NCBI GenBank assembly: GCA_964604705.1
Contig: CAZSAP010000013.1
Location: 21,388-85,387 of the forward strand
Reading direction: 5' to 3'
From: an uncultured bacterium
Lineage (GTDB): Bacteria > Oederibacteriota > JAAXVQ01
DNA length: 64,000 nt
The notes under the pieces are model-generated. The model made no database searches and was not told where the DNA came from. It was given only the letters and a program-made list of their open reading frames with translations. The position numbers were made by a program, and so were the translations under genes. Within the stretch, counting starts at the first letter, position 1. Every line of letters starts with the position of its first letter. Shown piece by piece: positions 7,822 through 58,483 of the stretch.

Positions 7822-10356
<2,535 letters not shown>

Positions 10357-10447: not shown

Positions 10448-12370
10448 CTACTCTTGGGTAGCTTTCAATTTTTTATTGGCTTTTTCAATGTTTTCAGCCG
10501 CCCCGGGGTAATCCGGCACCAGTGTGAGTGTATCTTTCCAATTGGCAATGGCTTGTTTAAATAAAGCCTGGGTGTATTGTTCAATCCCCGTTAAATAGAG
10601 TTCCTTAGCACGCTGCCGGAAGACACTTTCATTGGCTTTCATCAATTTGAGCACTTCAATATGTTGCGGTGACAGACTCAACACTCTGCGCCAGTTGGAT
10701 GCTGCCCGTACCAAATCCCCGGACTGCAAATATTTATTGCCAGCAGCAATCAGATCCGCAACCTTTTCTTCCAACAAGCGACCGGCCAAGGACATGTATT
10801 GCTTGGCTTCTTTATGCTTAGGTTCAAGCTTCAACAGGCGCGACCAATCCTCCATGGCGCCGCGATAGTCGCCTTGCTCAAACCGCTTCAGTCCTGCCAA
10901 ATAGAGTTCCTTAATGCGTGGATCTTTAAACCCCTGCGCGCCTTTAGCCATTTCCAGGCGGATTTTTTCCAACATATCCTTGGCCTCTGCATGCATGGGC
11001 TCTAGATCCAATACGCTTTGATACGCCAACAATGCTTCGGCCCAATCACGTACCGCATAGGCCTTACGCCCTTCGGCTAAATTTTTAGCAATGGCCTTGG
11101 CATTATGGGCCGAACGTACCTCTTCCAGCGCTTTGCTGGCGCGAGCATTTTTTTCATCAATCAGCAATATCCGTTGATACTCTTCCATGGCATCCATCAA
11201 TTGTCCGGCCTTGCGAAATTGTTCAGCCTTCACAAACCGCGCTTCCATTTCTTTATTCTGCTCTTCCCGCTTAAGCGCCTCGCGAGCCTGAGCCAATCCT
11301 GCGGCTGCCACTTTATCATCCGGGACAAAGGTAAGCACTTTCTGAAACGCGTTGACTGCCGTAACATACGCTTTCCCAAGAAGTGCCTTGGTGCCTTGGC
11401 GACGCGCCTCGGAAATCAATGCTTCCTTCTCCGACGCCAGGGCGCGCCCCCCACCAAAAAAATAAGTGAAACTCGCACGATGGCCCAAGCCAAGATCCCC
11501 CTGAGGAATCAGGGCATAATCCAATTGATACCCCTGTATGTTGAACCCAAGTCCAGCCCGTGCCCCTGACCAAACATCCAAACCTTCACGTTCCGGACGC
11601 CACAAATAGCCTGCACGCAAAGCAAATAAATTCTGATACCAATACTCGGCTCCAACGCCGTACCGAAACGAACCAGGCTCCGTACGCGCAACCTCAACAT
11701 TGGCAATGAGGCTGTCTTCAAACCAACGCCCTGCGCTTCCCACACGAAAGGTCAGTGGGAGTGGATACCCGGCCACCGGCAGCCCAAGATTTTGCACAAC
11801 CGCGCTTACCGACCACCATTCGTTTTCCGGACGGTACAAGGCACCCACGTCGGCCAGTTCCGTACTGTAGGTCACATCGTCCAGCTGTTCACGGGCATAG
11901 GCCACATTCACACCTGCTGACAGATCCGGAGTTAAACGCCGCCCGTATCCCAACGCCAGCATGGCGCTGTAGGGATTGAACCCGGCGCCGGTCAAAACCC
12001 CATCCTCATCTCGCCGCAATTGGATATCCGAATTAAGGTACGATACTTGAACCGCCGGGCACCCCCAAGACTGCGGATATGCAAACGAAAGGTATTCTTG
12101 TCGAAGGTTGGCGATCCATTGATTGTGCATGAACAACACCTGCATGTCGTTCAAACGCCCCAACCCGCCGGGATTCCATGACAATGTATTAATGTCATCG
12201 GCCACGCCACTGAACGCCTCACCCATGGCATAGGCCCGTGGTCCAGCCCCCATTTGCAGAAAAGCCATTGCCCGTCGAGAGGCCTGACGGTCCGCCGCCC
12301 AGACCGACATCCCCAGATTAAGCGAAACAACCAGCAAGACCATACACGTAAGGCACTGTTGCGTCTTCAT
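10448..12370 (-). CDS. Outer-membrane beta-barrel of the PorV/PorQ/PorP-like (FadL-like, T9SS-associated) family, fused to C-terminal TPR repeats
   Basis: Signal peptide MKTQQCLTCMVLLVVSLNLGMSVWA (start moved to ATG at 12370). Family motif GAGPRAYAMGEAFSGVADDINTLSWNPGGLG, shared with the ORFs at 25158 and 52588. The C-terminal ~330 aa are helical TPR-like repeats. Lies directly downstream of the CTD cargo gene at 12513-15566. Confidence 0.6.
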   Translation of the reverse strand: MKTQQCLTCMVLLVVSLNLGMSVWAADRQASRRAMAFLQMGAGPRAYAMGEAFSGVADDINTLSWNPGGLGRLNDMQVLFMHNQWIANLRQEYLSFAYPQSWGCPAVQVSYLNSDIQLRRDEDGVLTGAGFNPYSAMLALGYGRRLTPDLSAGVNVAYAREQLDDVTYSTELADVGALYRPENEWWSVSAVVQNLGLPVAGYPLPLTFRVGSAGRWFEDSLIANVEVARTEPGSFRYGVGAEYWYQNLFALRAGYLWRPEREGLDVWSGARAGLGFNIQGYQLDYALIPQGDLGLGHRASFTYFFGGGRALASEKEALISEARRQGTKALLGKAYVTAVNAFQKVLTFVPDDKVAAAGLAQAREALKREEQNKEMEARFVKAEQFRKAGQLMDAMEEYQRILLIDEKNARASKALEEVRSAHNAKAIAKNLAEGRKAYAVRDWAEALLAYQSVLDLEPMHAEAKDMLEKIRLEMAKGAQGFKDPRIKELYLAGLKRFEQGDYRGAMEDWSRLLKLEPKHKEAKQYMSLAGRLLEEKVADLIAAGNKYLQSGDLVRAASNWRRVLSLSPQHIEVLKLMKANESVFRQRAKELYLTGIEQYTQALFKQAIANWKDTLTLVPDYPGAAENIEKANKKLKATQE

Positions 12371-12512
12371 TGGTTCACCGTCGGCTTTCTTATGGTCATA
12401 CCCTTGCCTGCCTTTGGGTCCAGCATTAGCTTCAAACGCGTCATGCACCCGATCGGAATCATCTGCTTAGCTATCGTCTGTATCGGCCAAACCACGTTAA
12501 CGTTCCCCGCGC

Positions 12513-15500
12513 TTACTTAATGATGGTTAATTTGCCCGTCGGAAACACCTTCTGGCTCCCTTGATCCCCTCGAGCTGAAACTCTGAAAATATAGACTCCG
12601 GGGGCCACTCCGGAAACCTGCCAAAGCTGCTTATTGTAACTGTTCCCAACCCCACGTTCTTCTTGATCCCAGACCAACTCCCCAGCCTGGTTGTATACCC
12701 GTATAAGCACCATGGACGGTTCATCCAGCCAATACAAGAAACTCACCTGAGCACCCCGACAGGGATTGGGATAACTCACCGCTTCGTCATGTCCTATAAG
12801 CGGTTCAAGCTTAAAATCCGCCCGATCTCCGGGATACCGTGCGTCTTGTACCTGGCTCTTTAAGCCCGTCGCTGTGGCTTTGATTTGAAACGGCCCTCCA
12901 GATAGAGAAGACAAGGCATACGCGCCCTGGGCATCGGTCGTGGTTTGGAGCACAACCGAACCGGATGCATCCAAAGCTTGTACCAGAGCCTGATTGAGCG
13001 GTGCACCTTTGATGTTTTGGACATTCCCGGCGATGGACGTTTGTGGAATCAAGACCAAATCCACCCGTTCTGTACCGCTCCCCAGCCGCGCGGCGGCAGA
13101 TACGCTTACGGTCGAGTATCCGGCTGTCTGGGCTCGCACCGTAAACATCCCGCTGTGCAAACCTTTGATTGTATACACACCGACCGAGTTGGTTAACGCG
13201 ACCCGTACCGGCAGCGGATTGTCCGCTTGGTACACTTGGACCATGCATAAATTCAACGGCTGTCCCAGGGGATCGGTCACGCGTCCGCTCATGGTCCCTC
13301 CGGTTTGCATGACAAACTCCATTTGCAGACTTTGCGAAAGCGCAGGTACCGTCACCGCAGCCAAGGGCTCCGCGGCCAAATTCACTCCGAGGATTGACGT
13401 GAAATAGGCTTGGGCATGATAGGTTCCGGGTTGAAGCATTAGAGAGTAATTGCCCCAGGCATCGGCCATGGCTTCCCCCACATTGGCTGGATCGGACTCG
13501 GACCAAAACTTGATAATACCTGTAAACGTGCGGTTGCCGTAAGTGTCATGCATGGACCCATAGACTTTAGTGCCTGAGGTTAACGTAAAATTATTGCGGT
13601 AGGTTCCCTTGTCCTGCACGGTTACGTTATCCAATTGGCGACACGCCATGCCACCCGAATCCAAGGTCTGGGGCATCACTTGCAGGGCATACGTTCCGGG
13701 GGCAACCCCTTCCAAGCGATAATATCCTGTGCTGTCGGTAAAACTGTTTTGATCAAAAAAGGAGAGCGAGGCCAAAACATCAAAGCGATTTTTCGCCGTA
13801 ACTTTAACTCCGGGCAATGAATTCCCGGCCGCATCGTAAACGTATCCATCGAGCACGGCCCCGGAGGGAAGTTGTCGATTGTAGACCTCCAGCGCACCGG
13901 CGGTCACATGCAAGTAATCCGTGATGGTCTGAGCATGTCCGGCCACATTTTGTACAACGGACAAATAATCCCCCTCGGGAGCATAGGAAAGAATAAAACT
14001 ACCGTCGGTTTCCAGTTCCGCACTCACCGCGGTGTCCGCGCTCAAAAAGATGATGCTGCCGGCATCCAGACTGTTCCCCGTAGCACCGGTAATAACACCG
14101 CGCCGTCCTCCGGCCACTTGCAAATTGAAATCCTGTCGGCGAATGGCATTTTCTGAAACCGTTACGCCCTTCACGAGCGCCGCTGTATTCAACTCGGTCA
14201 AGCTCGCCTTCGGGGTTATGGAAAGGGTGTAGTTTTGAAACGGGGAGAGGCCGTCCACCGAATACTTCCCTTGTGCATCGGTCTTGGTCTTCACAAGCTT
14301 TTCGAAAGGATACTTCATGTCGACAAAGACATCCACACCGGCTTCGGCCAAGGGTTGGTGCCTGGCATCGTACACGGTTCCTTGCACAGTGCCCCCGGGC
14401 TGCAAAATAAAATTACGTGTGGTTTGCGTGACTGCACCTTGCAACGAAATGCCACTGAACTCGGCAATCTGCAGATTTGCGCCTTGCGGTGGGGTGACCC
14501 GAATCGAATAAAGTCCTTGCGTAAGCCCGTTAAACGCATAGATGCCTAAAGGCCCGGTAGTGGCCGTCTGTTGATTGTTGGTGTTCCCGGTGGCCGGATA
14601 AATCGTTACCACGGATTGATTCACAGGCCTGTCCAGATAATCATGCACAAATCCATCCAAACGACCGCCTAAGGGCAACTCAAAGTTGACATGGGCCACC
14701 ACCTGTTGATCAAGGACATTGAGATTGTTGCGAATGGTATTGGCATACCCCGGCGGACCGAAGGCGATCACATGGTTAACGCCTGGATTTACATGTTGCA
14801 GGACGTAGGTGCCATCGCCCGCTGTGTACGTCACACTTTGTGGCAAATAGTCAGGGGTATTGCCGTACACCGATATCAGCGTGACATTGGCCGCACCAAT
14901 GGTGGTCCCGGCATACGTCACCCGACCGGTAATGGTGCCTCCGGTGTACAGATCAAAATCAACATTGGGTTGATCCAGCTTATCGGTAAGGATCAGGGTG
15001 CGGGTTGGCAACGAGGCATGGAGCGGACTGGTAACCGAAAGCTTGGTCATTCCCGCAGGTTGTCGAAAGGCATACGATCCATCTGCGGCAGTGGGCGTGG
15101 TCGTTGAATAGGAAACATTGCCCACGACATTGGTCGCTGCCACCGTGGCGCCCATAATCGGAATCCCGCCTACAACGGTCCGTACATGCCCGGAAATCAA
15201 ACCACCGATGGATATGGAGGCGTTTTTCGTATTGGCTTGTCCGTTAATCATTTCAGGCGGGTCAATGGTGGTTGCGGACGTATATCCGGTTTTTGTAACC
15301 ACAAAATAATGCGTTACCCCAGCGTCAAACACCGGCAGCGTAAGCACATACTCCCCAAGGGCATCGGTGTACGCGGCGTACGGCAGATACGAGTTTGGAA
15401 AGGCAATAACAAATACCCCGGCACACGGTGTGTTGTTCGAAGCATCGGTGATCTTTCCCATGAGCATTGTGGGCGAGGCAGCCCACCCTGCGAGGGACAA

Positions 15501-15566
15501 TCCGCACGCCCAAATGCCTACAGCAACCCCGATCAACCTCCGCTGGAAGAAACACATCGCAGCCAC
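12513..15566 (-). CDS. Large secreted protein with repeated carboxypeptidase-regulatory-like domains and a T9SS-type C-terminal sorting domain (CTD)
   Basis: Signal peptide. Multiple G.V.D..G.P..GA.V repeats. The C-terminus (YPNPCRG...VLIRVYNQAGELV...GVYIFRVSARG...KLTIIK) fits the T9SS/FlgD-Ig-like CTD pattern. Confidence 0.65.
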   Translation of the reverse strand: MAAMCFFQRRLIGVAVGIWACGLSLAGWAASPTMLMGKITDASNNTPCAGVFVIAFPNSYLPYAAYTDALGEYVLTLPVFDAGVTHYFVVTKTGYTSATTIDPPEMINGQANTKNASISIGGLISGHVRTVVGGIPIMGATVAATNVVGNVSYSTTTPTAADGSYAFRQPAGMTKLSVTSPLHASLPTRTLILTDKLDQPNVDFDLYTGGTITGRVTYAGTTIGAANVTLISVYGNTPDYLPQSVTYTAGDGTYVLQHVNPGVNHVIAFGPPGYANTIRNNLNVLDQQVVAHVNFELPLGGRLDGFVHDYLDRPVNQSVVTIYPATGNTNNQQTATTGPLGIYAFNGLTQGLYSIRVTPPQGANLQIAEFSGISLQGAVTQTTRNFILQPGGTVQGTVYDARHQPLAEAGVDVFVDMKYPFEKLVKTKTDAQGKYSVDGLSPFQNYTLSITPKASLTELNTAALVKGVTVSENAIRRQDFNLQVAGGRRGVITGATGNSLDAGSIIFLSADTAVSAELETDGSFILSYAPEGDYLSVVQNVAGHAQTITDYLHVTAGALEVYNRQLPSGAVLDGYVYDAAGNSLPGVKVTAKNRFDVLASLSFFDQNSFTDSTGYYRLEGVAPGTYALQVMPQTLDSGGMACRQLDNVTVQDKGTYRNNFTLTSGTKVYGSMHDTYGNRTFTGIIKFWSESDPANVGEAMADAWGNYSLMLQPGTYHAQAYFTSILGVNLAAEPLAAVTVPALSQSLQMEFVMQTGGTMSGRVTDPLGQPLNLCMVQVYQADNPLPVRVALTNSVGVYTIKGLHSGMFTVRAQTAGYSTVSVSAAARLGSGTERVDLVLIPQTSIAGNVQNIKGAPLNQALVQALDASGSVVLQTTTDAQGAYALSSLSGGPFQIKATATGLKSQVQDARYPGDRADFKLEPLIGHDEAVSYPNPCRGAQVSFLYWLDEPSMVLIRVYNQAGELVWDQEERGVGNSYNKQLWQVSGVAPGVYIFRVSARGDQGSQKVFPTGKLTIIK

Positions 15567-16391: not shown

Positions 16392-16424
16392 AAAAACCTC
16401 ACGAGGCCGACAGAAATGGGACGC

Positions 16425-16934
16425 TTATTGGTTTTTTTTCAATATCGTTTCAATCACACTTGAGGTGCTGCGCCCTTCCACCAAAGGCATGCTCACCACA
16501 TCGCCACCCAGCGCCAACACTGTCTCGCGCCCAATGACTTTGTCCTTGGGCCAGTCGGCACCTTTCACCAGATAGAAAGGTTTGATGGCCGCAATCAACG
16601 CCCCGGGATCATCTTCGCCAAAAATCACCACCAAATCAACACACTCCAGGGAGGCCATAAGTTCCGCGCGCTCATCCTCGGGCAAAATCGGACGCTTCTC
16701 GCCCTTGATCCGACGGACCGAGGCATCGCTGTTGAGGCCGACCACCAGAGCATCGCCCAACTTGCGGGCCGCCGCCAAGTAACGGGCATGGCCTTGATGC
16801 AGCAGATCAAAGCATCCGTTGGTAAACACAACCTTGCGTCCCACTTCGCGCCACCGCGCCACACGCACCGCCGCTTCGGTGCGATCCACGATCTTTGAAC
16901 GCGGGTCTCGGGGCAATCCGACTACGACTTCCAT
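16425..16934 (-). CDS. rfaE2: D-glycero-beta-D-manno-heptose 1-phosphate adenylyltransferase (RfaE domain II, stand-alone)
   Basis: Cytidylyltransferase motif NGCFDLLHQGH. 169 aa. Overlaps the upstream kinase gene by 13 bp. Confidence 0.85.
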   Translation of the reverse strand: MEVVVGLPRDPRSKIVDRTEAAVRVARWREVGRKVVFTNGCFDLLHQGHARYLAAARKLGDALVVGLNSDASVRRIKGEKRPILPEDERAELMASLECVDLVVIFGEDDPGALIAAIKPFYLVKGADWPKDKVIGRETVLALGGDVVSMPLVEGRSTSSVIETILKKNQ

Positions 16935-25157: not shown

Positions 25158-27404
25158 TTACCGGGGCAGACGAATGATGACCTCGTCGCGCCGGTTTTTC
25201 TTGCGTCCATCGGCTGTTTTGTTGGACGCCACGGGCTTGGTTGGCCCCCAGCCCTGGATGGTCAGCTGGTAATCGGGCACGTTTTGTTCACTCACCAAAA
25301 ATTGCCGTACGGATTCGGCGCGCACCAAGGAAAGCTTCATGTTGGTTTTTAGCTTCCCTACTGCATCGGTATGGCCATTGACCACGGCTTCGCAGGCCGG
25401 TTCGTCGTTGATCACATAGGCGCATTTGATGACCTTATCAAACATTTCTGCGGTCAGGAAGGCCTTGCCTGTATCAAACAGAATGTTCCCGATCTTAATG
25501 GTATCGCGGCTCCCGTTTTTATACATGGTCGCCAACACCGGGCGAATGCGGTCCGCCACGATGATTTGATGCCCTTCCTCATCGACAGCTGAAAGTTCGT
25601 AACGGTACGACGCATTGTTCAACACGGCTGCACCGGCATTGTCTTTCGAATCCCAGGCAAACGCCTTGAACAACTCCTCTTTGGTCACATAGGATCGGAT
25701 GACCTGGTTGGCATCGTCGTAAATATCCAAGCGCCAACTTTCGGTCTTGATGGGGTCTTTGATGGAGAAGTAGACCTTGTCCGGATATTGTTCAAAATTT
25801 TTGCTGGTGTACAGTTTCGGGATCGTATCAATGATAAAGATCGTGCCCTTCACCATCTTGGTATCCGAGCCTTCCACAATGGTCAAGGTGAACGGATACA
25901 GTTCCTTGGACGGTACACGCATGCCGGCCGTGTCCTTGGCATTCCAGGCAAACGACTTGGGCGGCTGGCCCTCCCCAAAATACCGCTTCATCAACGCGCC
26001 CCGGGCATTGGTGATGACCAGGTTCCACGATGTGGCGCTCTCCACTCCTTCGGGCATCTTCGGCACCAGAGTCACATCACCCGTAAACCCAACGAAGACT
26101 CCGTGCAGTTTGGGAATCTTGCCCGAAACCGTGGGTTGGGGCTTGGGACGCGGGGTGGCGGTAAATTGCGGCGTCACGGTCGGCGTGGGGGTCTCCGTAA
26201 ATTCTGGCGTGGCGGTGGGCGTAGGGGTGAGTGTTACCGTCGGGGTGGGGGTCACCACCGGTCCGCCGGTATGCCAGTCAATGGATAAGCGCTGGTTCCA
26301 CTCGGGCTGCTGGCCGGGATACGTTCCCAGCTCACGCCCGAAATACGTCCATTCAACATTGATAAACGAGGTTACCAACGCCACACCGGCGGTTGGGTAC
26401 CCTTGGTAAAACCCGCCGCGCAAGGCCAGCAGTCCGGAAAGCAAAAACTCCAAACCCATGCGCGTCTTGGAAAGATTGATTTGCGAGGCATTGTTGGGCG
26501 TGTTCTTGAACTCGTTATCGCCTTGCCAGTTCATTTCCACCACATCCAGGGCCAGAGTTGTGCCCAAATCCTGGAAGTTTAGGAAATACGGTTTGTACGC
26601 CACACCGACTTTGAGGTTGGGAGGTTGTACTTCCTCCATGATCCGTGTATACAAATCCGCGGCCATAACCGCAAAGGTCCACTCGGTGGTGGGCTGATAC
26701 ATCAGTCCCAGGTCAAATCCACCGCCCCATTCCTGACGCAGATTGACTTCCTTCATGTCCGCCAATTCCAGCGCGTTTTTGGTTTGCAAGGTTCCGCCGC
26801 GCTGGGTCGCCTTAAACGTCGATCCTGCCGCCAAATAACCAAAATAAGGGATCTGCCAACCCCACCCAAACGACATGGTCTCGATCAGCGCCACCCGCAC
26901 GTCCCAATGCACCTGGGGCACCAAAATAGCGCTGGTGGTCATAAGATCATCCGTGGTCAGCCACATGCCGCAGCCAAAGTGCGGACCCACATACTTCCAG
27001 CTGCCTTCGGTCACGGCATGGATGCGGGTATTGGCCAGGGCCGAACCTGTTTCAGGAGACACATCCGGAAACTTGGTGAATTCATTGGCATGCCCGGCCC
27101 AGAACTGCATCTGATCAAACGAATGCGTGTCCGTGCCCAGCATGAAATACGGCAAGGTAAAACGCCAGTATTGCAGACGCGCCAAACCGGCAGGATTGTA
27201 AAACATGGCGTTCTCATCGTCGGCCACGGCCACAAACGCACCGCCCATGGCCATCGGGCGCATGCCTTGGATAAAAATACGGTCCGTGTTGTCGCCCAGC
27301 ATCATTTGCTGCTCGCGTGTTTCACCGGCCCAACTCGACCCTCCACTTAGGGTGCCAAGCAGGGCCAAGGTCACGGCCAGAGATTTTAACAGGCGGTTGG
27401 TCAT
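25158..27404 (-). CDS. PorV/PorQ/PorP-like outer-membrane beta-barrel with a Thr/Pro-rich linker and a C-terminal OmpA-like peptidoglycan-binding domain
   Basis: Signal peptide. Family motif GMRPMAMGGAFVAVADDENAMFYNPAGLARLQ. Linker TPTPTVTLTPTPTATPEFTETPTPTVTPQFTATP. C-terminal OmpA motif GHTDAVGKLKTNMKLSLVRAESVRQFL. Confidence 0.65.
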   Translation of the reverse strand: MTNRLLKSLAVTLALLGTLSGGSSWAGETREQQMMLGDNTDRIFIQGMRPMAMGGAFVAVADDENAMFYNPAGLARLQYWRFTLPYFMLGTDTHSFDQMQFWAGHANEFTKFPDVSPETGSALANTRIHAVTEGSWKYVGPHFGCGMWLTTDDLMTTSAILVPQVHWDVRVALIETMSFGWGWQIPYFGYLAAGSTFKATQRGGTLQTKNALELADMKEVNLRQEWGGGFDLGLMYQPTTEWTFAVMAADLYTRIMEEVQPPNLKVGVAYKPYFLNFQDLGTTLALDVVEMNWQGDNEFKNTPNNASQINLSKTRMGLEFLLSGLLALRGGFYQGYPTAGVALVTSFINVEWTYFGRELGTYPGQQPEWNQRLSIDWHTGGPVVTPTPTVTLTPTPTATPEFTETPTPTVTPQFTATPRPKPQPTVSGKIPKLHGVFVGFTGDVTLVPKMPEGVESATSWNLVITNARGALMKRYFGEGQPPKSFAWNAKDTAGMRVPSKELYPFTLTIVEGSDTKMVKGTIFIIDTIPKLYTSKNFEQYPDKVYFSIKDPIKTESWRLDIYDDANQVIRSYVTKEELFKAFAWDSKDNAGAAVLNNASYRYELSAVDEEGHQIIVADRIRPVLATMYKNGSRDTIKIGNILFDTGKAFLTAEMFDKVIKCAYVINDEPACEAVVNGHTDAVGKLKTNMKLSLVRAESVRQFLVSEQNVPDYQLTIQGWGPTKPVASNKTADGRKKNRRDEVIIRLPR

Positions 27405-52587: not shown

Positions 52588-53565
52588 CTAAAACCCCACA
52601 CTCAACGTCACGAGATGGTTCGCCCCAAACGTCCCCATGCTGGCAAACGCATAATCCAGCCGCACGCTGCCCAAGGCGGCCCCGCCGCCGGCGGTCAATC
52701 CCGCCAGATCGTAGCCTGCCTTGTAACCTAAGCGGGCAAAGAGCATATCCCTAAACCCATACTCCACACCCGTGTGAAATTTGAAATCCTGATCCAACGG
52801 CTTTACGACTTCGGCACTGCACGCCAACCCATGCTGCTTAACCCAGAGCCAACGGTACGCAGCTCCGGCTTGCAGCGTGGTGGGCAGCAAATCCCCCTCT
52901 TGATCGTACTTGAGTCGCGGCCCCAAATTTTCAACCGCGAGGCCGATGTGCAAATCACGCCACACCTTGTACGCCACGCCACCGTCCAAGGCCACGGTCA
53001 AACCCGAATACGCTTCGGCCAAGCGCGAGCTCAGCACTTTGACATTGATACCGGCGCAATTCTCCCCGTACATGCGCATACTCCCGGAAAGCGTGAGCAC
53101 ATAGTCTTGAAGCGCCTTGACCGAATGCTCGCTTCCATCCCCCAAGGTATAATCAAGTTGCCCGGCATCAAAGTACGCAACACTGACCCCCCAGGCCGAA
53201 GCCGGCGAGGCCGGCATGCCAAACGCCAGGGCCGTATACGCGGAATCATCCAAAGTCTTGTAGTACGTTGCGCTCACCTGCGGTCGACTCAAGCGCTGCA
53301 AGCCGGCCGGGTTAAAATAAACAGCATCCAGATCCGCGGCCAACGCCGTGTAAGCTTCACCCAGCCCCAGTGCCCGTGCGCTGGCCGGGTACGTCAACAC
53401 CCGCGCACCGCTGACCAACCCGGCGTGGCACAGGGCAGGAAGCATGCCACTTCCCATCAATCCCAACAGGATCCAAACCTCAATACAACCTCTCAACCCC
53501 CGGCCCAAAGAACGCCTATGGGAAGCACGCGAAGTCAACTGTGTGTGTTGGTTACAATCGTTCAT
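52588..53565 (-). CDS. PorV/PorQ/PorP-like outer-membrane beta-barrel (short form, 325 aa)
   Basis: Family motif ALGLGEAYTALAADLDAVYFNPAGLQRLS. Ends ...TLSVGF. Lies immediately downstream of two CTD-bearing cargo genes. Confidence 0.6.
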   Translation of the reverse strand: MNDCNQHTQLTSRASHRRSLGRGLRGCIEVWILLGLMGSGMLPALCHAGLVSGARVLTYPASARALGLGEAYTALAADLDAVYFNPAGLQRLSRPQVSATYYKTLDDSAYTALAFGMPASPASAWGVSVAYFDAGQLDYTLGDGSEHSVKALQDYVLTLSGSMRMYGENCAGINVKVLSSRLAEAYSGLTVALDGGVAYKVWRDLHIGLAVENLGPRLKYDQEGDLLPTTLQAGAAYRWLWVKQHGLACSAEVVKPLDQDFKFHTGVEYGFRDMLFARLGYKAGYDLAGLTAGGGAALGSVRLDYAFASMGTFGANHLVTLSVGF

Positions 53566-53566
53566 G

Positions 53567-55726
53567 TCATTTCACCACGCATATCTTCTTCCGGGTATGC
53601 ACGCCCGGAAGCTGAATGTCGACGAAGTAGATCCCGCTGGCCACGGTCTGGTTGTCCTTATTCACACCCGTCCAGATTTCCTGATGCACCCCGGCTTCAC
53701 GTCGTCCGTCCACCAACGCCTTCACCATCACGCCGTCGAGGCTGTAAAGCTTGATGACCACGTTCCCGGGTTGCGGCAGCGTGTACCAGATGCTGGCATG
53801 CTCGCCCAGCAGCGGCTTGAACAATCCGCCGATGATTTTCACTTCTTGTGGAAATACAGACCCCTTCACCGCGATGAAATCCTCGGCACTCAATCCCTTA
53901 GCCAAGGCCTGCGCAGTATATATTTTTCTCGCAGGTTCAAACACCCAACCGGCTGCTTGCGGCTCAAGCGTGATTGGTTCATAGGGCAATCCCGTCAAAA
54001 CATATTGTCCGTTGCTTCCGGTAATAGCTGCAACCGAGATGGAATTACCCCGTGCTTGTACGGTGATATTGGGAACGGCCACTCCTTGCGAATTTCGGAC
54101 GGTCCCTTGGGCTGTATAGACTACGCCCGGGAGCATGGCGGCAAATCCCTGGCTGTCTTGACTGGCACCCAACGAAGCGTACGAACGTGTGGCAGGCGTG
54201 AACGAATACCCAGTTAGCGAGGGCGTGATGGTATAGTTGCCGGGTGATAGATTCACAAACTCGTAATAACCTGTCGTATCCGTAGTATAGGTTCCTTGCG
54301 AACCACCGGACAAGGTTACAATCACTTGCTTGCCCACTTGATTTCCAGCTGCATCCGTAATGTAGCCGCGAATAAAATAACCGCTGCCTGGAATAATGGT
54401 GAAATCCTGGCTGGTCTGATTCTGACCCAAAGGTGCATAGGTTCGTTGAGTAGGTGAAAAAGACCAGCCCGCCAGAACTGGAATCACGCTTACATTCCCA
54501 GCCGGTACTTTTTCGAAAACATAGCTCCCATCGCTTTTGGTCACGGTGTTGGCATGAATCGCCCCGCTGGTTAAGAACATGTACACGCCTGCCTTGGGTA
54601 CACTCGCACCATCACGAACCACACCGCTGATGGTGTAGACACCCTCGATCCAACGCGCAAACTTTAAATCCTTATTGGTTACATCGTAGTAGGCTATAGC
54701 TGGAGATCCCGAGGAATCTAATTTTAAAGAAGTAGTAAAGCCCACAGCCCCCGATGCATCCACCACGCTCGGAATCCAAGCGCCGGAGCTGTTGGTCGCG
54801 TATTTAAGATGCCAACGGGTGAAGTCCAAGTAACTGATGTGTGCAGCGGTACCCTGCGTAGCAATGGACGTGTCGCCGCCAACGGAATAATCATTATCCA
54901 CCTTTTGTTTAGTCCAGGAACTGCCATTGAAGTAAAAATATTGGAGAAAACGGTAATTTACATAATCGGCACCACTCGTGCTTATTGTATTACTGCATGC
55001 ACTAATGTGCGGATTTCCGCTTGTGTCCAGTGCCAAAGAAAGAAATGCGCCTTCATTGTTTCCTTGGCCTGTCGGCTTATTAGCCGTCCAACTTCCCGCT
55101 GGCCCATTATAGTAAGATACTTCTTTATCGTTGTTGTACGCAGCCACATGCGGCACACCGCCAGTATCAAGCGCCAGAGAATGTTCCTGAGGGTCGTTGC
55201 CTAGGGGCAGCGAGCTCACGCCCCAAGACGTTCCGTTAAAGTAACCATATCTCAAACTTCCAGAACTAACATAGGTCACATGCGGACGCTGCGAGGCATC
55301 CAACTTTAGAGATGGGGAGGGGATCTCCGAAGACATGCTGGTGCCAACCAGTGTAGGGCTGCTCCAGGCGCTCCCGGTCCACTCAGTATACCGCAGCTCT
55401 GAGGCACTGGTGCGAAAAGCAATGCAGGGATAGTTACTGCTGTTACGGGCAATGGACGTGCCATTACCCCCGGCAGTTGCACCTACCGTCTGCACACTCC
55501 AGGCCGAACCGTTATGGTAGGCATATTTTAACCGATTGTTTGTATAATCATAGTAGCTGATCATAGGATGATTTCCACTGTCCAGTGCTAGCGACGAGTA
55601 CCATCCCACATCGCCGGTCGTGTCCACGGTCTGCACGTCCCAGACTGCAAAACTGTTTACTGCCAAAATAGCCAAAGCTGAAAACAGCAACCCACAAAAC
55701 AGTTTGGATCTCTTCCTGGTTCTCAT
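53567..55726 (-). CDS. Secreted protein with N-terminal propeller repeats, carboxypeptidase-regulatory-like domains and a T9SS-type CTD
   Basis: Signal peptide. The N-terminal repeats are shared with the lipoprotein at 51446. G.V.D..G CarbReg-like units. C-terminal ...VVIKLYSLDGVMVKAL...SGIYFVDIQLPG...KKICVVK. Confidence 0.6.
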   Translation of the reverse strand: MRTRKRSKLFCGLLFSALAILAVNSFAVWDVQTVDTTGDVGWYSSLALDSGNHPMISYYDYTNNRLKYAYHNGSAWSVQTVGATAGGNGTSIARNSSNYPCIAFRTSASELRYTEWTGSAWSSPTLVGTSMSSEIPSPSLKLDASQRPHVTYVSSGSLRYGYFNGTSWGVSSLPLGNDPQEHSLALDTGGVPHVAAYNNDKEVSYYNGPAGSWTANKPTGQGNNEGAFLSLALDTSGNPHISACSNTISTSGADYVNYRFLQYFYFNGSSWTKQKVDNDYSVGGDTSIATQGTAAHISYLDFTRWHLKYATNSSGAWIPSVVDASGAVGFTTSLKLDSSGSPAIAYYDVTNKDLKFARWIEGVYTISGVVRDGASVPKAGVYMFLTSGAIHANTVTKSDGSYVFEKVPAGNVSVIPVLAGWSFSPTQRTYAPLGQNQTSQDFTIIPGSGYFIRGYITDAAGNQVGKQVIVTLSGGSQGTYTTDTTGYYEFVNLSPGNYTITPSLTGYSFTPATRSYASLGASQDSQGFAAMLPGVVYTAQGTVRNSQGVAVPNITVQARGNSISVAAITGSNGQYVLTGLPYEPITLEPQAAGWVFEPARKIYTAQALAKGLSAEDFIAVKGSVFPQEVKIIGGLFKPLLGEHASIWYTLPQPGNVVIKLYSLDGVMVKALVDGRREAGVHQEIWTGVNKDNQTVASGIYFVDIQLPGVHTRKKICVVK

Positions 55727-55775
55727 ACGTAGTTCCTCCCAATGCGAGGGGGTTTCCTAACTTCACTTACCAATC

Positions 55776-58448
55776 TCACTTGATAACCGCCGCTTTGCTC
55801 CAAGCCTTGTAATCCGCACTTTGCAAGCTAACGATATAGATCCCACTTCCGACTACCTCACCTCGACTGTTTTTTCCGTCCCAAACAATTTCGTGAAACT
55901 GTTCTTTTACAAACAACTTATTGTCGGCCAAGGTGGTTATCTTATCTCCCACCATATTGTAAATGACCAGAGTAACGGACGCATCGGAAAATTGATACCA
56001 ACGAATTCGCGCTTGCTCTCCGTGACTTGGATTGATTTGGCTGTGTAGGATCTTCAAGCACTTTTCATAGTCACGGGTGCTGTCAAAAGCAGAACTGGTT
56101 GCAGTTGGCGTTGGTGTGTTGGCCGTCTTAGGTTGAAGCTGATAGATATGGTTGTTTGCAGCTAAAGCGTATACTTCAAACTGGTTATCGTTATTGCCAT
56201 CACCTACAGCTACCCGATAAATAGGCGAAGGAACCACACCCAAGTCTGTGGTCGCCCATTGATTCGTATATTTAAACTGGTACACGTGGGCGTCTGTCCC
56301 AGCGGCATAAACCTCGTCTTGGCCGTCGTTGTCGGCATCATTAACCACGACAGAATGCACTTCCTGCGTACTACTCCCCAAGCCGGTGGCGGACCAAGAG
56401 GTGATTTGCCATTTAAATTGGTAGACCTTGCCGTCTTGATTGGCTCCGTAGACTTCCATTTGACCGTCATGGTTGCCGTCACCTACGGCCACAGCATACA
56501 TTTCGCCCAAACCAAATCCCACGGAAGATTTGATCCAAGAAACGCCGTTATATTTAAACTGATACAGCGCCCGGTCGGCATTGCCGCCATAGACTTCCAG
56601 TTCACCGTCGCCGTTTCCATCTTCACAGGCCACAGCGTACATTTGTCCGACCCCAAACCCCAGATCCGTGCGCTGCCAAGTAGGATTTTTCACAAACTGA
56701 TACACATGCCCATCGGCACATGCTGCGTAAATTTTTTGATAACCATCACCGTTTCCATCTCCTGCAGCCAATGAGTATATCTTATCGTTGGTCGTAGCGC
56801 TCTGCCCCACTAGGGTCTTATCCCAGCTTGTACCATTAGCTTTGAATTGATATATATGGTTATCCAAGGTAGCTCCATAAACTTCCGCTTTGCCGTCTTG
56901 ATCCGCGTCGCACACTAAAGTACTGGAGTAAAATTCACCAGATACCGTACTTGTTGGGTACGACGTTGTTCCCCACACGTTTCCAGTTTTCTTTACGTTC
57001 GTAATTTTTAGGTCCCGATTGCAGGTTATCAATTCCTGCAGTCCATTATTGTCTGCATCTCCAATATCCAACCCGTAAAAAATCCCGGATAAGGAAGGAG
57101 TAGACAGCTGAGCGCAATCCGCTAGCTCCCAGCGTACCGGTCCTGTCAAAGGATCAAGTACAATAAATGCTTTTTCAGAAGTAACGACCGCTCCATCGTC
57201 GTTTAATTGTAAATCGTACACGCCGGGCACTGTAGGCAAGCTAAACTCACACGTTAACTTCGAGACACTTACTCTCTGAACATTGGTGGCACCTACGATT
57301 GCCGAGCTGCCGACCAATTTAACTTGAACATTGGGATTATAAAACTCGCGGCCTCTGACAGTGGCCGAAAGAGTTGTGTCAATTGTCCCATGTTTTTTGG
57401 ATATATCTGAGGTGAAGAACTTTTCAGCGAAACTAAAGAATGGGCCTTGAGCGGAGATAAACATCTTTTTCCTTTTGAAAAACAAACCTTCTGGCGAAGT
57501 CAAGCTTACATTTCCATCACCTATTGTATTTGATGTCATCGAAGAATGGCCAATAACAATGTCGGCGGCAATACCATTGCCGGAGGGAATCGTATTATAT
57601 ATCAGCGCTCTATTATTTCCCCGATCTACAGTAAAAAGCCTAACCCCATCACTAAAGACATCTCGCGGTTCAGAATATTTATACGCATTTGTTCCGGTGG
57701 AGTTTTGGAGCATGTCCGTTTGACCAACTACAATATCTGCACTCGCATTGTTCACAGTCGGGATACTATTATAAATAAGTACCCGGTGGTTTCCTGAATC
57801 GACAATAAATAGCTTCCCGTTAACTGTATAAGCACTCCATGGGGTATTGAACTTCTGCGCAGTAGTTCCACTACTATTTGTTGTCATTGAAGATTGGCCG
57901 ATCACCACATTTGCGTTTGCATTATTATTAGTTGGAACTGTATTGTATATTAAAACGCGATGGTTACTGCTGTCACAAATAATTAACCGTGTTCCATCTG
58001 TACATACTTGGGTAGGCTTGTAGAGCGTATTTGCTGTAGGATTACTCAAGCCTTGATTCGCTGTGTTGTTAGTTAAATTCGTCTGCCCAATCACTAAACT
58101 TGCTGTCGCGACATTGCTGTTGGGTATCGGATCAAAAATCAGGACACGGTTGTTGTTACAGTTCGTTGCAATAAATTTATTATTAACAACTGTCAAACCA
58201 CCCCAATTATAGTTCGAGTATCCACTTAGTGTGACATCAGGTGTTTCAGATCCTGTGGTTGGAAACTGATTATAGATATAGTAGTAGCCGCTCCAGTTGC
58301 TCAAGTATATCTTCGTTCCATCAGAATAAATTTTCCCAAACCCTGTACTAAGTTGGACATCTGCCGCCGGATCGTTTTCAAAGCCATATAATAGTCCTGC
58401 CGAAAACAGACCTGCTAAAAGCACAAGCGAAGCAATGCTCTTTTTCAT
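55776..58448 (-). CDS. Secreted NHL-repeat plus FG-GAP/VCBS-repeat protein with a T9SS-type CTD
   Basis: Start at MKKSIASLVLLAGLFSAG (ATG 58448). NHL-like repeats (NHRVLIYN three times). FG-GAP-like D.D.DG..E.Y repeats (GDGNGDGYQKIY, EDGNGDGELEVYGG, GDGNHDGQMEVYGA, NDADNDGQDEVYAAG). CTD ...VTLVIYNMVGDKI...SGIYIVSLQS...KAAVIK. Gene GC is markedly lower than the window average. Confidence 0.6.
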   Translation of the reverse strand: MKKSIASLVLLAGLFSAGLLYGFENDPAADVQLSTGFGKIYSDGTKIYLSNWSGYYYIYNQFPTTGSETPDVTLSGYSNYNWGGLTVVNNKFIATNCNNNRVLIFDPIPNSNVATASLVIGQTNLTNNTANQGLSNPTANTLYKPTQVCTDGTRLIICDSSNHRVLIYNTVPTNNNANANVVIGQSSMTTNSSGTTAQKFNTPWSAYTVNGKLFIVDSGNHRVLIYNSIPTVNNASADIVVGQTDMLQNSTGTNAYKYSEPRDVFSDGVRLFTVDRGNNRALIYNTIPSGNGIAADIVIGHSSMTSNTIGDGNVSLTSPEGLFFKRKKMFISAQGPFFSFAEKFFTSDISKKHGTIDTTLSATVRGREFYNPNVQVKLVGSSAIVGATNVQRVSVSKLTCEFSLPTVPGVYDLQLNDDGAVVTSEKAFIVLDPLTGPVRWELADCAQLSTPSLSGIFYGLDIGDADNNGLQELITCNRDLKITNVKKTGNVWGTTSYPTSTVSGEFYSSTLVCDADQDGKAEVYGATLDNHIYQFKANGTSWDKTLVGQSATTNDKIYSLAAGDGNGDGYQKIYAACADGHVYQFVKNPTWQRTDLGFGVGQMYAVACEDGNGDGELEVYGGNADRALYQFKYNGVSWIKSSVGFGLGEMYAVAVGDGNHDGQMEVYGANQDGKVYQFKWQITSWSATGLGSSTQEVHSVVVNDADNDGQDEVYAAGTDAHVYQFKYTNQWATTDLGVVPSPIYRVAVGDGNNDNQFEVYALAANNHIYQLQPKTANTPTPTATSSAFDSTRDYEKCLKILHSQINPSHGEQARIRWYQFSDASVTLVIYNMVGDKITTLADNKLFVKEQFHEIVWDGKNSRGEVVGSGIYIVSLQSADYKAWSKAAVIK

Positions 58449-58483
58449 CCGTGACAATCTCTGCATGTCCTCTCCTCCACCCA

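What the first reader, a model, noticed from the sequence alone, without database searches (positions are those of the whole stretch)
10448..15566. T9SS-type cargo gene followed by a PorV/PorP-like barrel fused to a 330-aa TPR array
The 1017-aa protein with a CTD sorting domain (12513-15566) is followed in the same orientation by a beta-barrel carrying the G.R..AMG.AF..VADD....WNP.GL signature. Its C-terminal half is a long TPR solenoid, an architecture not seen in the Bacteroidetes PorV, PorQ or PorP/SprF prototypes.

The same cargo-then-barrel order recurs at 52588-58448 and echoes sprB-sprF pairing. That suggests dedicated outer-membrane partners for individual CTD cargoes, here with an added periplasmic TPR scaffold that could recruit the secretion machinery.
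Basis: partly seen in the sequence, partly recalled or inferred. Interest (0 to 1): 0.6.

Follow-up and report, generated by a model that had tools for sequence, protein, structure and literature searches.

The report
Surface-protein anchor barrel with TPR tail
A conserved two-gene cassette from uncultured bacteria outside the group where type IX secretion is known pairs a large surface protein carrying a type IX sorting tag with its own PorV/PorQ-like outer-membrane barrel, which has a long periplasmic TPR-like tail; I found no paper describing this variant of a known secretion and anchoring part.

Summary
12513-15566(-) encodes a 1017-aa protein made of repeated CarboxypepD_reg domains, ending in a T9SS type A CTD that clears both curated cutoffs. 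10448-12370(-) encodes a PorV/PorQ-family barrel (139 bits, cutoff 90) modelled with 14 strands. Its best solved-structure match is F. johnsoniae PorV, ahead of FadL. It is followed by six TPR-like repeats of about 55 aa. The pairing is not chance: in 18 of 18 distinct fusion loci, a type A CTD protein lies immediately upstream on the same strand. These loci come from Goldiibacteriota, FCPU426, Firestonebacteria, Elusimicrobiota, WOR-3 and unclassified MAGs. The architecture is common in metagenomes (76 of 147 top cluster representatives). PGAP names it only "PorV/PorQ family", and I found no paper describing it. The sprB-sprF analogy is the wrong family: these are type A CTDs with PorV/PorQ barrels, so PorZ-PorQ and PorU-PorV anchoring is the closer model. 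I could not test whether these genomes hold T9SS core genes; none is in the window. In distant relatives the cassette sits next to HAMP sensors that share a periplasmic domain, which hints at what the TPR tail contacts. Verdict: a real feature, a new variant of a known kind, of moderate to high interest.

The parts
12513..15566 (-). Cargo gene: 1017-aa secreted or surface protein with an N-terminal signal-like segment, tandem CarboxypepD_reg (transthyretin-like) domains and a C-terminal type A CTD
   Evidence: ORF. PF13620 E 3e-73 with 9 stretches, PF18962 and TIGR04183 above cutoffs. Orthologs of 1007-1037 aa lie in the same position in L005-L011.
12516..12773 (-). T9SS type A C-terminal sorting domain (CTD) of the cargo, residues 932-1017, ending ...GKLTIIK
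   Evidence: TIGR04183 33.1 bits (cutoff 23); PF18962 34.7 bits (cutoff 27). Aligned with 14 other CTDs in A3; 15 of 15 hit TIGR04183 at E<=0.01.
12371..12512 (-). 142-nt intergenic spacer between the cargo stop (TAA) and the likely ATG of the barrel gene; no terminator-like site, so probably co-transcribed
   Evidence: Sequence; scan. Most orthologs have a 4-nt overlap instead.
10448..12370 (-). Barrel-TPR gene: 640-aa PorV/PorQ-family outer-membrane protein with a C-terminal periplasmic TPR-like tail (the longest ORF extends to a GTG at 12448)
   Evidence: NF033709 139.3 bits, cutoff 90. Start inferred from alignment A1. AF2 model pLDDT 92.2.
12296..12370 (-). Predicted Sec signal peptide (MKTQQCLTCMVLLVVSLNLGMSVWA|AD)
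   Evidence: Read from the translation. Hydrophobic N-termini are conserved in A1. pLDDT is low at residues 21-27. Inference only; no signal-peptide predictor was run.
11453..12295 (-). N-terminal helical segment (residues about 29-72, carrying the G.R..AMG.AF..VADD.....WNP.GL signature) plus a 14-strand beta-barrel (residues 77-304)
   Evidence: DSSP of the AF2 model shows 14 strands. Foldseek top hit is PorV 6h3i_F, E 1e-10, TM 0.64. PorV is the only OMP hit by sequence in the PDB.
10451..11452 (-). All-helical tail, residues 307-640: six TPR-like repeats of 51-59 aa (helix pair plus connecting helix), inferred to be periplasmic because it follows the last strand of an even-stranded barrel
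   Evidence: Pfam TPR_11, TPR_2, TPR_1 and TPR_19 above cutoffs. Helix map. Repeat alignment. Structural hits to P58IPK, CTPR and OGT TPR domains.
52588..58613 (-). Second cargo-then-barrel locus: a 945-aa FG-GAP/NHL protein (likely start 58448), a 719-aa CarboxypepD_reg protein, then a plain 325-aa PorV/PorQ-family barrel (52588-53565) with no TPR
   Evidence: NF033709 156.2 bits and PF19572 32.7 bits for the barrel. Cargo CTDs score 17.4 and 22.3 bits on TIGR04183, with hits to the PorU and PorZ CTDs.
25158..27404 (-). Third family member in the window: a barrel with the same N-terminal signature, a Pro/Thr-rich linker, FlgD_ig-like domains and a C-terminal OmpA peptidoglycan-binding domain (748 aa)
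   Evidence: NF033709 52.2 bits (E 7e-14, below the cutoff of 90), OmpA 61 bits, FlgD_ig 35.7 bits. Signature seen in the BLASTP alignment and the translation.

Best explanation
The region is a conserved two-gene envelope module of a bacterium from the Goldiibacteriota/FCPU426/Firestonebacteria clade. Gene 1 makes a Sec-exported, 1017-aa protein built from tandem transthyretin-like beta-sandwich domains. It ends in a type IX secretion type A sorting domain (CTD). Gene 2 makes a 14-strand outer-membrane barrel of the PorV/PorQ family, whose C-terminus continues into the periplasm as six TPR-like repeats. Shown: the domain identities, the fold, and the strict conservation of the gene pair. Inferred: the barrel is the cognate receptor for the CTD of its neighbouring cargo (or cargoes). 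It would hold the cargo non-covalently at the cell surface, as PorQ holds PorZ and PorV holds PorU, rather than acting as one freely diffusing general shuttle. Also inferred: the periplasmic TPR tail fixes the barrel to a periplasmic or inner-membrane partner. In distant relatives the best candidate partner is the periplasmic domain of an adjacent HAMP sensor. In a canonical T9SS, the partner could be a PorW- or PorK/N-type scaffold. Export of the folded cargo across the outer membrane must need a separate translocon, because a 14-strand plugged barrel cannot pass it. That translocon was not found and could not be searched for.
For: Cargo CTD above curated cutoffs. Barrel above the PorV/PorQ family cutoff. 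AF2 model pLDDT 92 with 14 strands. Best solved-structure match is PorV of the SprA-PorV translocon (E 1e-10, TM 0.64, 340 of 345 columns), ahead of FadL and TodX at TM 0.43-0.50. PorV is the only OMP sequence hit in the PDB. Synteny: the pair is kept, with a 4-nt overlap, in L003/L011 where all flanking genes differ from the window. In 18 of 18 distinct fusion loci from at least five candidate phyla, a same-strand protein of 662-2048 aa lies immediately upstream, and its C-terminus hits TIGR04183 (15 of 15; 7 of 7; contexts). One Elusimicrobiota MAG has two separate cassettes, each with its own cargo. The window alone holds three paralogous barrels at 27-33% identity with different periplasmic additions: TPR, none, and OmpA. 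A peptidoglycan-tethered or TPR-docked barrel fits a static anchor better than a mobile shuttle. CTDs fall into classes conserved across genomes, and class I travels with the TPR barrel. The Elusimicrobiota cargo CTD matches the PorZ CTD best (E 8e-17). Literature: PorU and PorZ are anchored at the surface through PorV and PorQ (PMC5562754). Genetically linked cognate shuttles are established for type B CTDs (PMC12618676).
Against: There is no direct evidence of CTD-barrel binding. No T9SS core gene (SprA, PorK/L/M/N, PorU) was recognised among the window ORFs screened. None was seen in about 730 kb of related loci searched with a PorU probe. Published surveys say T9SS genes are absent outside FCB phyla (PMC11285876), so the export route is unknown. 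The barrel is below both equivalog cutoffs: PorV 57 bits against 250, PorQ 82 against 220. Adjacency is not a strict code: L005 has a class II CTD gene inside a class I cluster. In F. johnsoniae all type A CTDs use one PorV, so dedicated type A partners would be a departure. The HAMP sensor link is absent from the window clade.
Confidence: 0.6

Rival explanations
1. The barrel-TPR protein is simply this organism's general PorV, the single shuttle for all type A CTD cargoes of a canonical T9SS encoded elsewhere. Its position next to one cargo would then be incidental operon history.
For: It belongs to the PorV/PorQ family and is closest in fold to PorV. In F. johnsoniae all type A CTDs use PorV (PMC12618676). 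L005 has three CTD genes, of two CTD classes, ahead of one barrel.
Against: There are at least three paralogous barrels in 64 kb. It is far below the PorV equivalog cutoff and scores higher on PorQ. One MAG has two cassettes, each with its own cargo. Adjacency holds in 18 of 18 loci, even where the flanking genes differ. A bulky periplasmic tail or an OmpA tether argues against free lateral shuttling.
Confidence: 0.15
2. It is a trans-envelope signalling relay. The surface CTD protein senses something outside the cell, the barrel couples it across the outer membrane, and the periplasmic TPR tail contacts the periplasmic domain of an inner-membrane HAMP sensor (histidine kinase or nucleotide cyclase).
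For: A HAMP sensor is adjacent in 8 of 10 distant fusion loci. It is a HAMP histidine kinase in L040-L043 and a HAMP class III cyclase in L012, L013, L016 and L019. All share a TM, periplasmic domain, TM, HAMP topology. The periplasmic domains of the kinase and cyclase types are homologous despite different outputs (hhalign probability 94%, E 1e-7; BLAST to 4e-9). Another cyclase neighbours a barrel relative in L044. Precedent: the CTD of PorA binds the PorY sensor kinase in the periplasm (PMC12152298).
Against: No such sensor lies next to the window gene or any close ortholog, and none is encoded in the window. Adjacent two-component genes often just regulate their neighbours without physical contact. 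No interaction was modelled or measured.
Confidence: 0.15
3. The CTD and PorV-like barrel work in these non-FCB phyla without a canonical T9SS. They could be a simpler or ancestral surface-attachment system, or the cargo could stay periplasmic and dock on the TPR tail.
For: The host lineages lie outside NCBI's FCB group. [quoted passage not shown] No core gene was found in any sequence held.
Against: Absence is untested at genome scale: only about 5% or less of any genome was visible. A 14-strand barrel cannot export a folded 100-kDa protein. CTDs here keep the full type A signature and match the PorU and PorZ CTDs, which suggests the usual recognition machinery.
Confidence: 0.15
4. It is a FadL-type importer of hydrophobic compounds unrelated to secretion, as proposed for the T. 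pallidum UPF0164 'FadL-like' proteins, which also carry a TPR-bearing periplasmic extension.
For: PF03687 UPF0164 scores 26.5 bits (cutoff 21.4) over the N-terminal 87 residues. FadL and TodX are the next structural hits. T. pallidum TP0548, TP0859 and TP0865 have an alpha-helical C-terminal extension with a TPR motif (PMC8407342).
Against: PF03349 Toluene_X/FadL scores only 12.8 bits against a cutoff of 29.7. No FadL chain matches by sequence in the PDB at E<=1, whereas PorV does. PorV is clearly the better fold match. Invariant adjacency to CTD proteins has no rationale for a lipid importer.
Confidence: 0.05

Closest known systems
PorV (LptO) of Bacteroidota T9SS (F. johnsoniae PorV, PDB 6H3I chain F; P. 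gingivalis PorV)
   Same: Same NCBIfam family (NF033709). 14-strand barrel. Best structural match (E 1e-10, TM 0.64) and the only OMP sequence match in the PDB. Encoded alongside type A CTD proteins.
   Different: Below the PorV equivalog cutoff (57 bits against 250). Carries a periplasmic TPR-like tail of 334 aa that PorV lacks. Several paralogs occur per genome region, each next to a cargo gene, whereas one PorV serves all type A CTDs in F. johnsoniae (PMC12618676). The host is outside the FCB superphylum.
PorQ-PorZ and PorV-PorU sub-complexes of the P. gingivalis attachment complex
   Same: A PorV/PorQ-family barrel stably holding one particular CTD protein at the cell surface (PMC5562754). 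The barrel scores higher on PorQ than on PorV. CTDs of the partner cargoes hit the PorZ and PorU CTD regions. In Ignavibacteriales and Zixibacteria, a protein with a BNR/Ycf48-like hit and a PorZ/PorU-like CTD sits directly upstream of such barrels.
   Different: The cargoes here are adhesin- or S-layer-like repeat proteins, not a sortase or an A-LPS carrier. Below the PorQ equivalog cutoff (82 bits against 220). TPR tail present. Binding was not shown.
PorP/SprF-like shuttles paired with type B CTD proteins (SprB-SprF; Fjoh cognate pairs)
   Same: Same genetic logic: the cargo gene is linked to a gene for its own outer-membrane partner, which determines final localisation (PMC9143113, PMC12618676).
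   Different: Different barrel family (no PF11751 hit) and different CTD type (type A TIGR04183, not type B TIGR04131). This would be the type A counterpart, which to my knowledge has not been described.
Treponema pallidum 'FadL-like' UPF0164 proteins TP0548, TP0859 and TP0865
   Same: A 14-strand FadL-fold barrel followed by a periplasmic alpha-helical C-terminal extension carrying a TPR motif (PMC8407342). The window protein clears the PF03687 cutoff at its N-terminus. The family found here includes members with only one tail repeat, which resembles the treponemal layout.
   Different: The treponemal extension is a single three-helix bundle; here there are six repeats. Tail homology was not tested because no treponemal sequence was available. 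The treponemal proteins are interpreted as nutrient importers, and I know of no CTD partner reported for them.
PorA-PorY signalling in P. gingivalis
   Same: A T9SS CTD engages a periplasmic sensor kinase (PMC12152298). Distant relatives of this cassette are flanked by HAMP kinases or cyclases that share one periplasmic domain.
   Different: The sensors here were not shown to be related to PorY. The link is contextual only, and it is absent from the window clade.
FadL/TodX hydrophobic-compound channels
   Same: The same 14-strand barrel fold with an N-terminal segment ahead of the barrel; the second-best structural hits.
   Different: The Pfam FadL model is not met. There is no sequence match in the PDB, and the fold match is poorer than to PorV. 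FadL has no TPR tail.

Membership tests
T9SS type A CTD proteins (TIGR04183 / PF18962) | Curated HMM score above the cutoff | tested here: met
   TIGR04183 33.1 bits (cutoff 23); PF18962 34.7 bits (cutoff 27) for the 1017-aa cargo.
T9SS type A CTD proteins (TIGR04183 / PF18962) | Domain at the extreme C-terminus of a protein with an N-terminal Sec signal | tested here: met
   The match covers residues 932-1007 of 1017. The N-terminus is MAAMCFFQRRLIGVAVGIWACGLSLAGWAA. The signal peptide is judged by eye only.
T9SS type A CTD proteins (TIGR04183 / PF18962) | Export depends on a T9SS (SprA/Sov, PorK/L/M/N) and CTD processing by PorU | not testable with these tools
No core gene was recognised among the window ORFs screened or in the held loci. 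The PorU homolog search was swamped by Ignavibacteria.
T9SS type A CTD proteins: second-locus cargoes (53567-55726, 55776-58613) | Curated HMM score above the cutoff | tested here: not met
   22.3 and 17.4 bits against a cutoff of 23. E-values are 1e-4 and 3e-3, with additional hits to the PorU and PorZ CTDs, so these are probably divergent CTDs, but formally they fall below threshold.
PorV/PorQ family (NF033709) | Curated HMM score above the cutoff | tested here: met
   139.3 bits against 90 for the fusion; 156.2 bits for the plain barrel at 52588-53565.
PorV/PorQ family (NF033709) | 14-strand FadL-fold outer-membrane barrel resembling solved PorV | tested here: met
   AF2 model with pLDDT 92 and 14 strands. 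Foldseek top hit is 6h3i_F PorV, TM 0.64.
PorV proper (NF033710 equivalog) | Equivalog HMM cutoff | tested here: not met
   57.2 bits against 250. PF19572 PorV gives no hit at E<=1 for the fusion.
PorQ proper (NF033711 equivalog) | Equivalog HMM cutoff | tested here: not met
   81.8 bits against 220.
PorV/PorQ family (functional) | Binds the CTD of T9SS substrates or components | not testable with these tools
Only synteny (18 of 18 loci) supports it.
PorP/SprF family (PF11751) with type B CTD (TIGR04131) | HMM matches to PF11751 in the barrel and TIGR04131 in the cargo | tested here: not met
   No PF11751 hit at E<=1. The window cargo has no TIGR04131 hit. Only 1 of 15 related CTDs hits it, at E 0.008.
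FadL/TodX (PF03349 Toluene_X) | Pfam gathering score | tested here: not met
   12.8 bits against 29.7, E 0.041. No FadL chain matches by sequence in the PDB at E<=1.
UPF0164 (PF03687, Treponema FadL-like) | Pfam gathering score | tested here: met
   26.5 bits against 21.4, but the match covers only residues 39-125 against profile positions 13-105 of 325. It is a partial, N-terminal match.
UPF0164 (PF03687, Treponema FadL-like) | Homology of the C-terminal TPR-bearing extension with the treponemal one | not tested
   No treponemal sequence was available. The resemblance comes from the paper's description.
TPR repeat proteins | Pfam TPR models above the cutoff; tandem helix-turn-helix repeats | tested here: met
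   TPR_11 46.5 bits (cutoff 26.8), TPR_2 45.0 (27), TPR_1 39.1 (27.8), TPR_19 31.9 (25). There are six repeats of 51-59 aa, longer than the canonical 34 aa.

The most novel reading that the evidence does not exclude
Type A sorting domains and PorV/PorQ-type barrels operate in phyla outside the FCB superphylum (Elusimicrobiota, Goldiibacteriota, Firestonebacteria, FCPU426) as self-contained cassettes. The barrel's periplasmic TPR tail would physically couple a surface-displayed CTD protein to an inner-membrane HAMP sensor (kinase or cyclase). That would make an outer-to-inner-membrane signalling device, possibly working without a canonical SprA/PorKLMN type IX machine.
Probability: 0.15. Interest if true: 0.85.

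Novelty: new variant of a known kind. Interest (0 to 1): 0.58.

Why it matters
Three reasons. First, in the model organisms one PorV is thought to serve every type A CTD, and only type B CTDs have cognate, genetically linked partners. A large family of cargo-linked PorV/PorQ paralogs would show that type A sorting can also be partner-specific, and it supplies many natural cognate pairs for working out how CTDs are recognised. Second, current reviews confine T9SS genes and CTD proteins to FCB phyla. Here both parts occur, conserved and paired, in at least four candidate phyla outside that group. So either T9SS ranges more widely than stated, or these parts can work without it. Third, the periplasmic tail gives a PorV-type barrel a handle on the inside of the envelope, and in distant relatives the cassette is tied to HAMP sensors that share a periplasmic domain. 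This makes a concrete, testable proposal for how outer-membrane secretion or anchoring is wired to the cell interior. It also offers a possible relative for the unexplained TPR-bearing extension of the syphilis spirochete's 'FadL-like' vaccine candidates.

Tried and rejected
1. T9SS core genes. I took a PorU probe from a bona fide Ignavibacteriales porU-porV locus (L039). phmmer against all ORFs of the window plus 39 loci (about 730 kb) found only CTD-level hits. The large-database search with the probe returned 120 Ignavibacteria and Bacteroidota PorU proteins and nothing informative for this clade.
2. CTD census. A search with the CTD profile A3 returned only five short fragments.
3. Source contig. 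The window's own proteins are not in the encoding-contig index, so the source genome could not be identified or walked.
4. Barrel-CTD docking.
6. Rosetta-stone idea. L045 has a plain barrel, a CTD-type protein and a separate 1021-aa TPR protein in a row. The TPR protein shows only generic TPR similarity to the window tail (E 0.015), so the idea is not supported.
7. Hidden T9SS parts. NCBIfam or Pfam scans covered about 35 window ORFs, and PDB sequence searches covered nine envelope-type or unannotated ORFs. None matched a T9SS component.
8. Literature. Searches for T9SS in Firestonebacteria, Elusimicrobia/Elusimicrobiota, FCPU426 and Goldbacteria, and for PorV-TPR fusions, found no description.
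9. Rejected: sprB-sprF family membership (wrong barrel family and wrong CTD type).
10. Rejected: horizontal-transfer island. GC is 0.51-0.53, like the flanks.

Full report
**What is there**

The finding's coordinates hold two adjacent minus-strand ORFs.

The upstream one (12513-15566, 1017 aa) starts with a hydrophobic, signal-like segment. Pfam reports nine matched stretches of the CarboxypepD_reg transthyretin-like domain (E 3e-73). The protein ends in a domain that clears the curated cutoffs of both type A sorting-domain models: PF18962 at 34.7 bits (cutoff 27) and TIGR04183 at 33.1 bits (cutoff 23), over residues 932-1007.

The downstream ORF (10448-12448) clears the NCBIfam PorV/PorQ family model at 139.3 bits (cutoff 90), over residues 59-326. 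Several TPR models clear their cutoffs in its C-terminal half. Alignment with twelve orthologs puts the real start at the ATG at 12370 (MKTQQ..., 640 aa), with a signal peptide ending VWA|AD.

In the window, 142 nt with no terminator-like site separate the two genes.

**Structure**

I ran an AlphaFold2 model with a 46-sequence alignment. It is confident (mean pLDDT 92.2; pTM 0.60, so the relative domain orientation is less certain). The layout is:

- short helices at residues 29-72;
- 14 beta-strands at residues 77-304;
- an all-helical tail from residue 308 to 639.

Against solved structures, the best match is chain F of 6H3I, which is PorV in the F. johnsoniae SprA-PorV translocon (E 1e-10, TM 0.64 over 340 of 345 columns, 20% identity). 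FadL and TodX follow at TM 0.43-0.50. By sequence alone, PorV is the only outer-membrane protein in the PDB that matches (E 7e-4), and no FadL chain appears at E<=1.

The Pfam FadL model is not met (12.8 bits against 29.7). No PorP/SprF model hits at all. The protein is below the equivalog cutoffs for PorV (57 against 250) and PorQ (82 against 220), and scores higher on PorQ.

The tail resolves into six repeats of 51-59 aa. Each has a TPR-like helix pair with a recurring Y/W..A...W/Y..vL.L.P motif, followed by a connecting helix that runs into the next repeat. So 'TPR-like solenoid' is right, but it is not a canonical 34-aa array. An even-stranded barrel has both termini on the periplasmic side, so I infer that the tail is periplasmic.

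**Is the pairing more than chance?**

Yes.

- Close orthologs (56-81% identity, 636-639 aa) come from MAGs labelled Candidatus Goldiibacteriota, candidate division FCPU426 and Candidatus Firestonebacteria.
- In L001/L008 the flanking genes match the window.
- In L003/L011 every flanking gene is different, yet the cargo and barrel genes remain together with a 4-nt overlap.
- Distant full-length relatives (22-33% identity, 593-673 aa) occur in other Goldiibacteriota, Elusimicrobiota, WOR-3, a MAG labelled Methylomirabilis and unclassified MAGs.

In all 18 distinct fusion loci I could inspect, the gene immediately upstream on the same strand encodes a large protein (662-2048 aa). These have varied bodies (Big_5, fn3, FG-GAP, beta-propeller, CarboxypepD_reg), but every C-terminus hits TIGR04183 at E<=0.01: 15 of 15 and 7 of 7 (contexts).

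One Elusimicrobiota MAG carries two separate cassettes, each with its own cargo.

The closest relative, L005, has three consecutive CTD genes before the barrel.

**How common is the architecture?**

An exhaustive phmmer search of 1.84 billion cluster representatives gave 360 hits at E<1e-30. I then built separate HMMs for the barrel and the tail. Of the 147 top representatives:

- 76 carry both parts in the right order;
- 64 are plain barrels, mostly 285-330 aa;
- 7 are giant tail-repeat proteins with no barrel match.

Tail length ranges from about one repeat (proteins of 365-460 aa) to more than the window's six (proteins of 1176-1442 aa). So the fusion is a sizeable, old family and not a one-off.

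PGAP names members 'PorV/PorQ family protein'. I found no paper describing the fusion or its pairing with cargo.

**The rest of the window**

- a 945-aa FG-GAP/NHL protein (likely start at 58448);
- a 719-aa CarboxypepD_reg protein;
- then a plain 325-aa PorV/PorQ barrel (156 bits).

The two cargo CTDs score 17.4 and 22.3 bits on TIGR04183, just under the cutoff of 23. They also hit the CTD regions of PorU and PorZ.

A third family member lies at 25158-27404. It has the same N-terminal signature, a Pro/Thr-rich linker, FlgD_ig-like domains and an OmpA peptidoglycan-binding domain.

So this lineage attaches different periplasmic modules to PorV/PorQ-type barrels. A peptidoglycan-tethered barrel cannot be a freely diffusing shuttle.

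The two complete barrels are 27-33% identical. The CTDs fall into classes conserved between genomes: class I goes with the TPR barrel, and class II goes with the plain barrel. L005 breaks a strict one-to-one rule, because a class II gene sits inside its class I cluster.

**Mechanism**

Shown:

- a type A CTD cargo;
- a PorV/PorQ-family 14-strand barrel with a TPR-like tail;
- an evolutionarily conserved two-gene unit.

Inferred: the barrel is the cognate receptor that holds its neighbour's CTD at the cell surface. The same-family precedents are PorQ-PorZ and PorV-PorU, in which the surface proteins PorZ and PorU are anchored through the barrels (PMC5562754).

Two further observations fit this:

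- In Ignavibacteriales and Zixibacteria, a protein of about 500 aa with a BNR/Ycf48-like hit and a PorZ/PorU-like CTD lies directly upstream of tandem plain barrels of this family.
- The Elusimicrobiota cargo CTD matches the PorZ CTD best (E 8e-17).

The sprB-sprF comparison captures the genetic logic but names the wrong family. [quoted passage not shown] This cassette would therefore be a type A counterpart.

**What might the tail bind?**

Nothing in the window answers this. In 8 of 10 distant fusion loci, a membrane sensor with a TM, periplasmic domain, TM, HAMP layout is adjacent:

- a HAMP histidine kinase in four Elusimicrobiota-type loci;
- a HAMP class III nucleotide cyclase in four Goldiibacteriota- or WOR-3-type loci.

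The periplasmic domains of the two sensor kinds are homologous, although their outputs differ (hhalign probability 94%, E 1e-7; pairwise BLAST down to 4e-9). This makes the periplasmic sensor domain a candidate partner for the tail or for the CTD. There is a precedent: the CTD of PorA binds the PorY sensor kinase in the periplasm (PMC12152298).

The window clade has no such neighbour. For the window gene, this remains a lead and not an explanation.

**The open question: is there a T9SS?**

[quoted passage not shown] NCBI taxonomy places Goldiibacteriota, FCPU426 and Elusimicrobiota outside the FCB group.

I could not test core-gene content:

- No window ORF that I screened matches a T9SS component.
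- A PorU probe found nothing in about 730 kb of held loci.
- The two large database searches spent on this were uninformative.

Two readings remain. Either T9SS extends beyond FCB and this is an accessory anchor module, or the CTD and barrel parts work without the canonical machine. A simple HMM census of four named MAGs would decide between them.

**Relation to the treponemal proteins**

The window protein clears Pfam UPF0164 at its N-terminus. This is the family of the T. pallidum 'FadL-like' outer-membrane proteins. Three of those five have a periplasmic alpha-helical extension with a TPR motif. Their authors found no other FadL with a similar C-terminal domain (PMC8407342).

The family described here, which includes single-repeat members, may be the wider context for that feature. 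Tail homology was not tested.

**Verdict**

This is a real, conserved, cargo-linked PorV/PorQ-family barrel with a periplasmic TPR-like tail: a new variant of a known kind. It is already named at family level by automated annotation, but I found no paper describing it. It occurs in phyla where T9SS parts are not supposed to occur.

Noticed in passing
window 25158-27404 (-): A 748-aa protein with the PorV/PorQ N-terminal signature and a sub-threshold family hit (52 bits). It continues with a Pro/Thr-rich linker, FlgD_ig-like domains and a C-terminal OmpA peptidoglycan-binding domain. This is a third barrel of the family, with a different periplasmic addition. Just upstream lie a TPR lipoprotein (27425-28222) and an unannotated 362-aa ORF ending ...SWIF (28319-29407).
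   Followed up: partly
L040 6967-8454; L041 7175-8593; L042 11988-13445; L043 4369-5730; L019 4580-5929; L012 3317-4858; L013 3411-4949; L016 568-2097: HAMP membrane sensors (histidine kinases in Elusimicrobiota-type loci, class III nucleotide cyclases in Goldiibacteriota- and WOR-3-type loci) lie next to 8 of 10 distant barrel-TPR cassettes. Their periplasmic domains are homologous to each other despite different outputs. They are absent from the window clade.
   Followed up: partly
window 51446-52522 (-) and 50457-51392 (-): Two probable lipoproteins lie directly downstream of the second barrel on the same strand. The first consists of repeats of about 46 aa (..Y.DW....LKYA....W....VD...G.Y.SLALD..G.P.I.Y), the same repeat type as the N-terminal half of the 719-aa cargo at 53567-55726. 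The second has an NPCBM_assoc/CARDB-like hit. They may belong to the same operon.
   Followed up: no
proteins P0054-P0056, P0082, P0097, P0108, P0111, P0130: Giant proteins (783-2880 aa) carry 6-14 matched stretches of the tail-type repeat. Some have an N-terminal barrel (P0054, P0081, P0138, P0141, P0181) and some have no barrel match. Tail length in the family runs from one repeat to well over six.
   Followed up: partly
L026 8364-11971; L014 8489-11918 (and L020-L035): In Ignavibacteriales and Zixibacteria, a protein of 490-520 aa with a BNR/Ycf48-like hit, whose C-terminus matches the PorZ and PorU CTDs, is followed by two tandem plain PorV/PorQ-family barrels. This looks like a conserved PorZ/PorQ-type gene cluster.
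   Followed up: partly
L005 2220-10001: The closest relative (81% identity, Goldiibacteriota DeMMO3_7) has three consecutive CTD proteins (1011, 522 and 1020 aa) upstream of the barrel-TPR gene. The middle one carries the class II CTD that, in the window, is associated with the plain barrel.
   Followed up: partly
window 7812-8633, 15657-18519, 22598-25032; L001: The cassette is embedded among LPS-core and Kdo/heptose genes. MsbA clears its cutoff and a GmhB-like gene is just under its cutoffs. Syntenic orthologs in L001 carry KdsA, KdsB, HldE-like, SIS/GmhA-like and heptosyltransferase Pfam domains. In P. gingivalis, type A cargoes are attached to LPS. However, the pair also occurs in a completely different context (L003).
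   Followed up: no
L045 10001-17372: In a JGI metagenome contig, a plain 410-aa PorV-like barrel is followed by a 1031-aa protein with faint CTD hits and then a separate 1021-aa TPR protein. The TPR protein shows only generic similarity to the window tail (E 0.015).
   Followed up: yes
L044 7916-13391: A 503-aa barrel relative abuts a 694-aa Pro-kumamolisin-activation-domain protein upstream. Downstream it is convergent with a DUF5939 plus Guanylate_cyc protein, another case of a cyclase next to a family member.
   Followed up: no
window 12371-12512: The window has a 142-nt spacer between the cargo and barrel genes, where most close orthologs have a 4-nt overlap (ATGA). Its origin and any regulatory role were not examined.
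   Followed up: no
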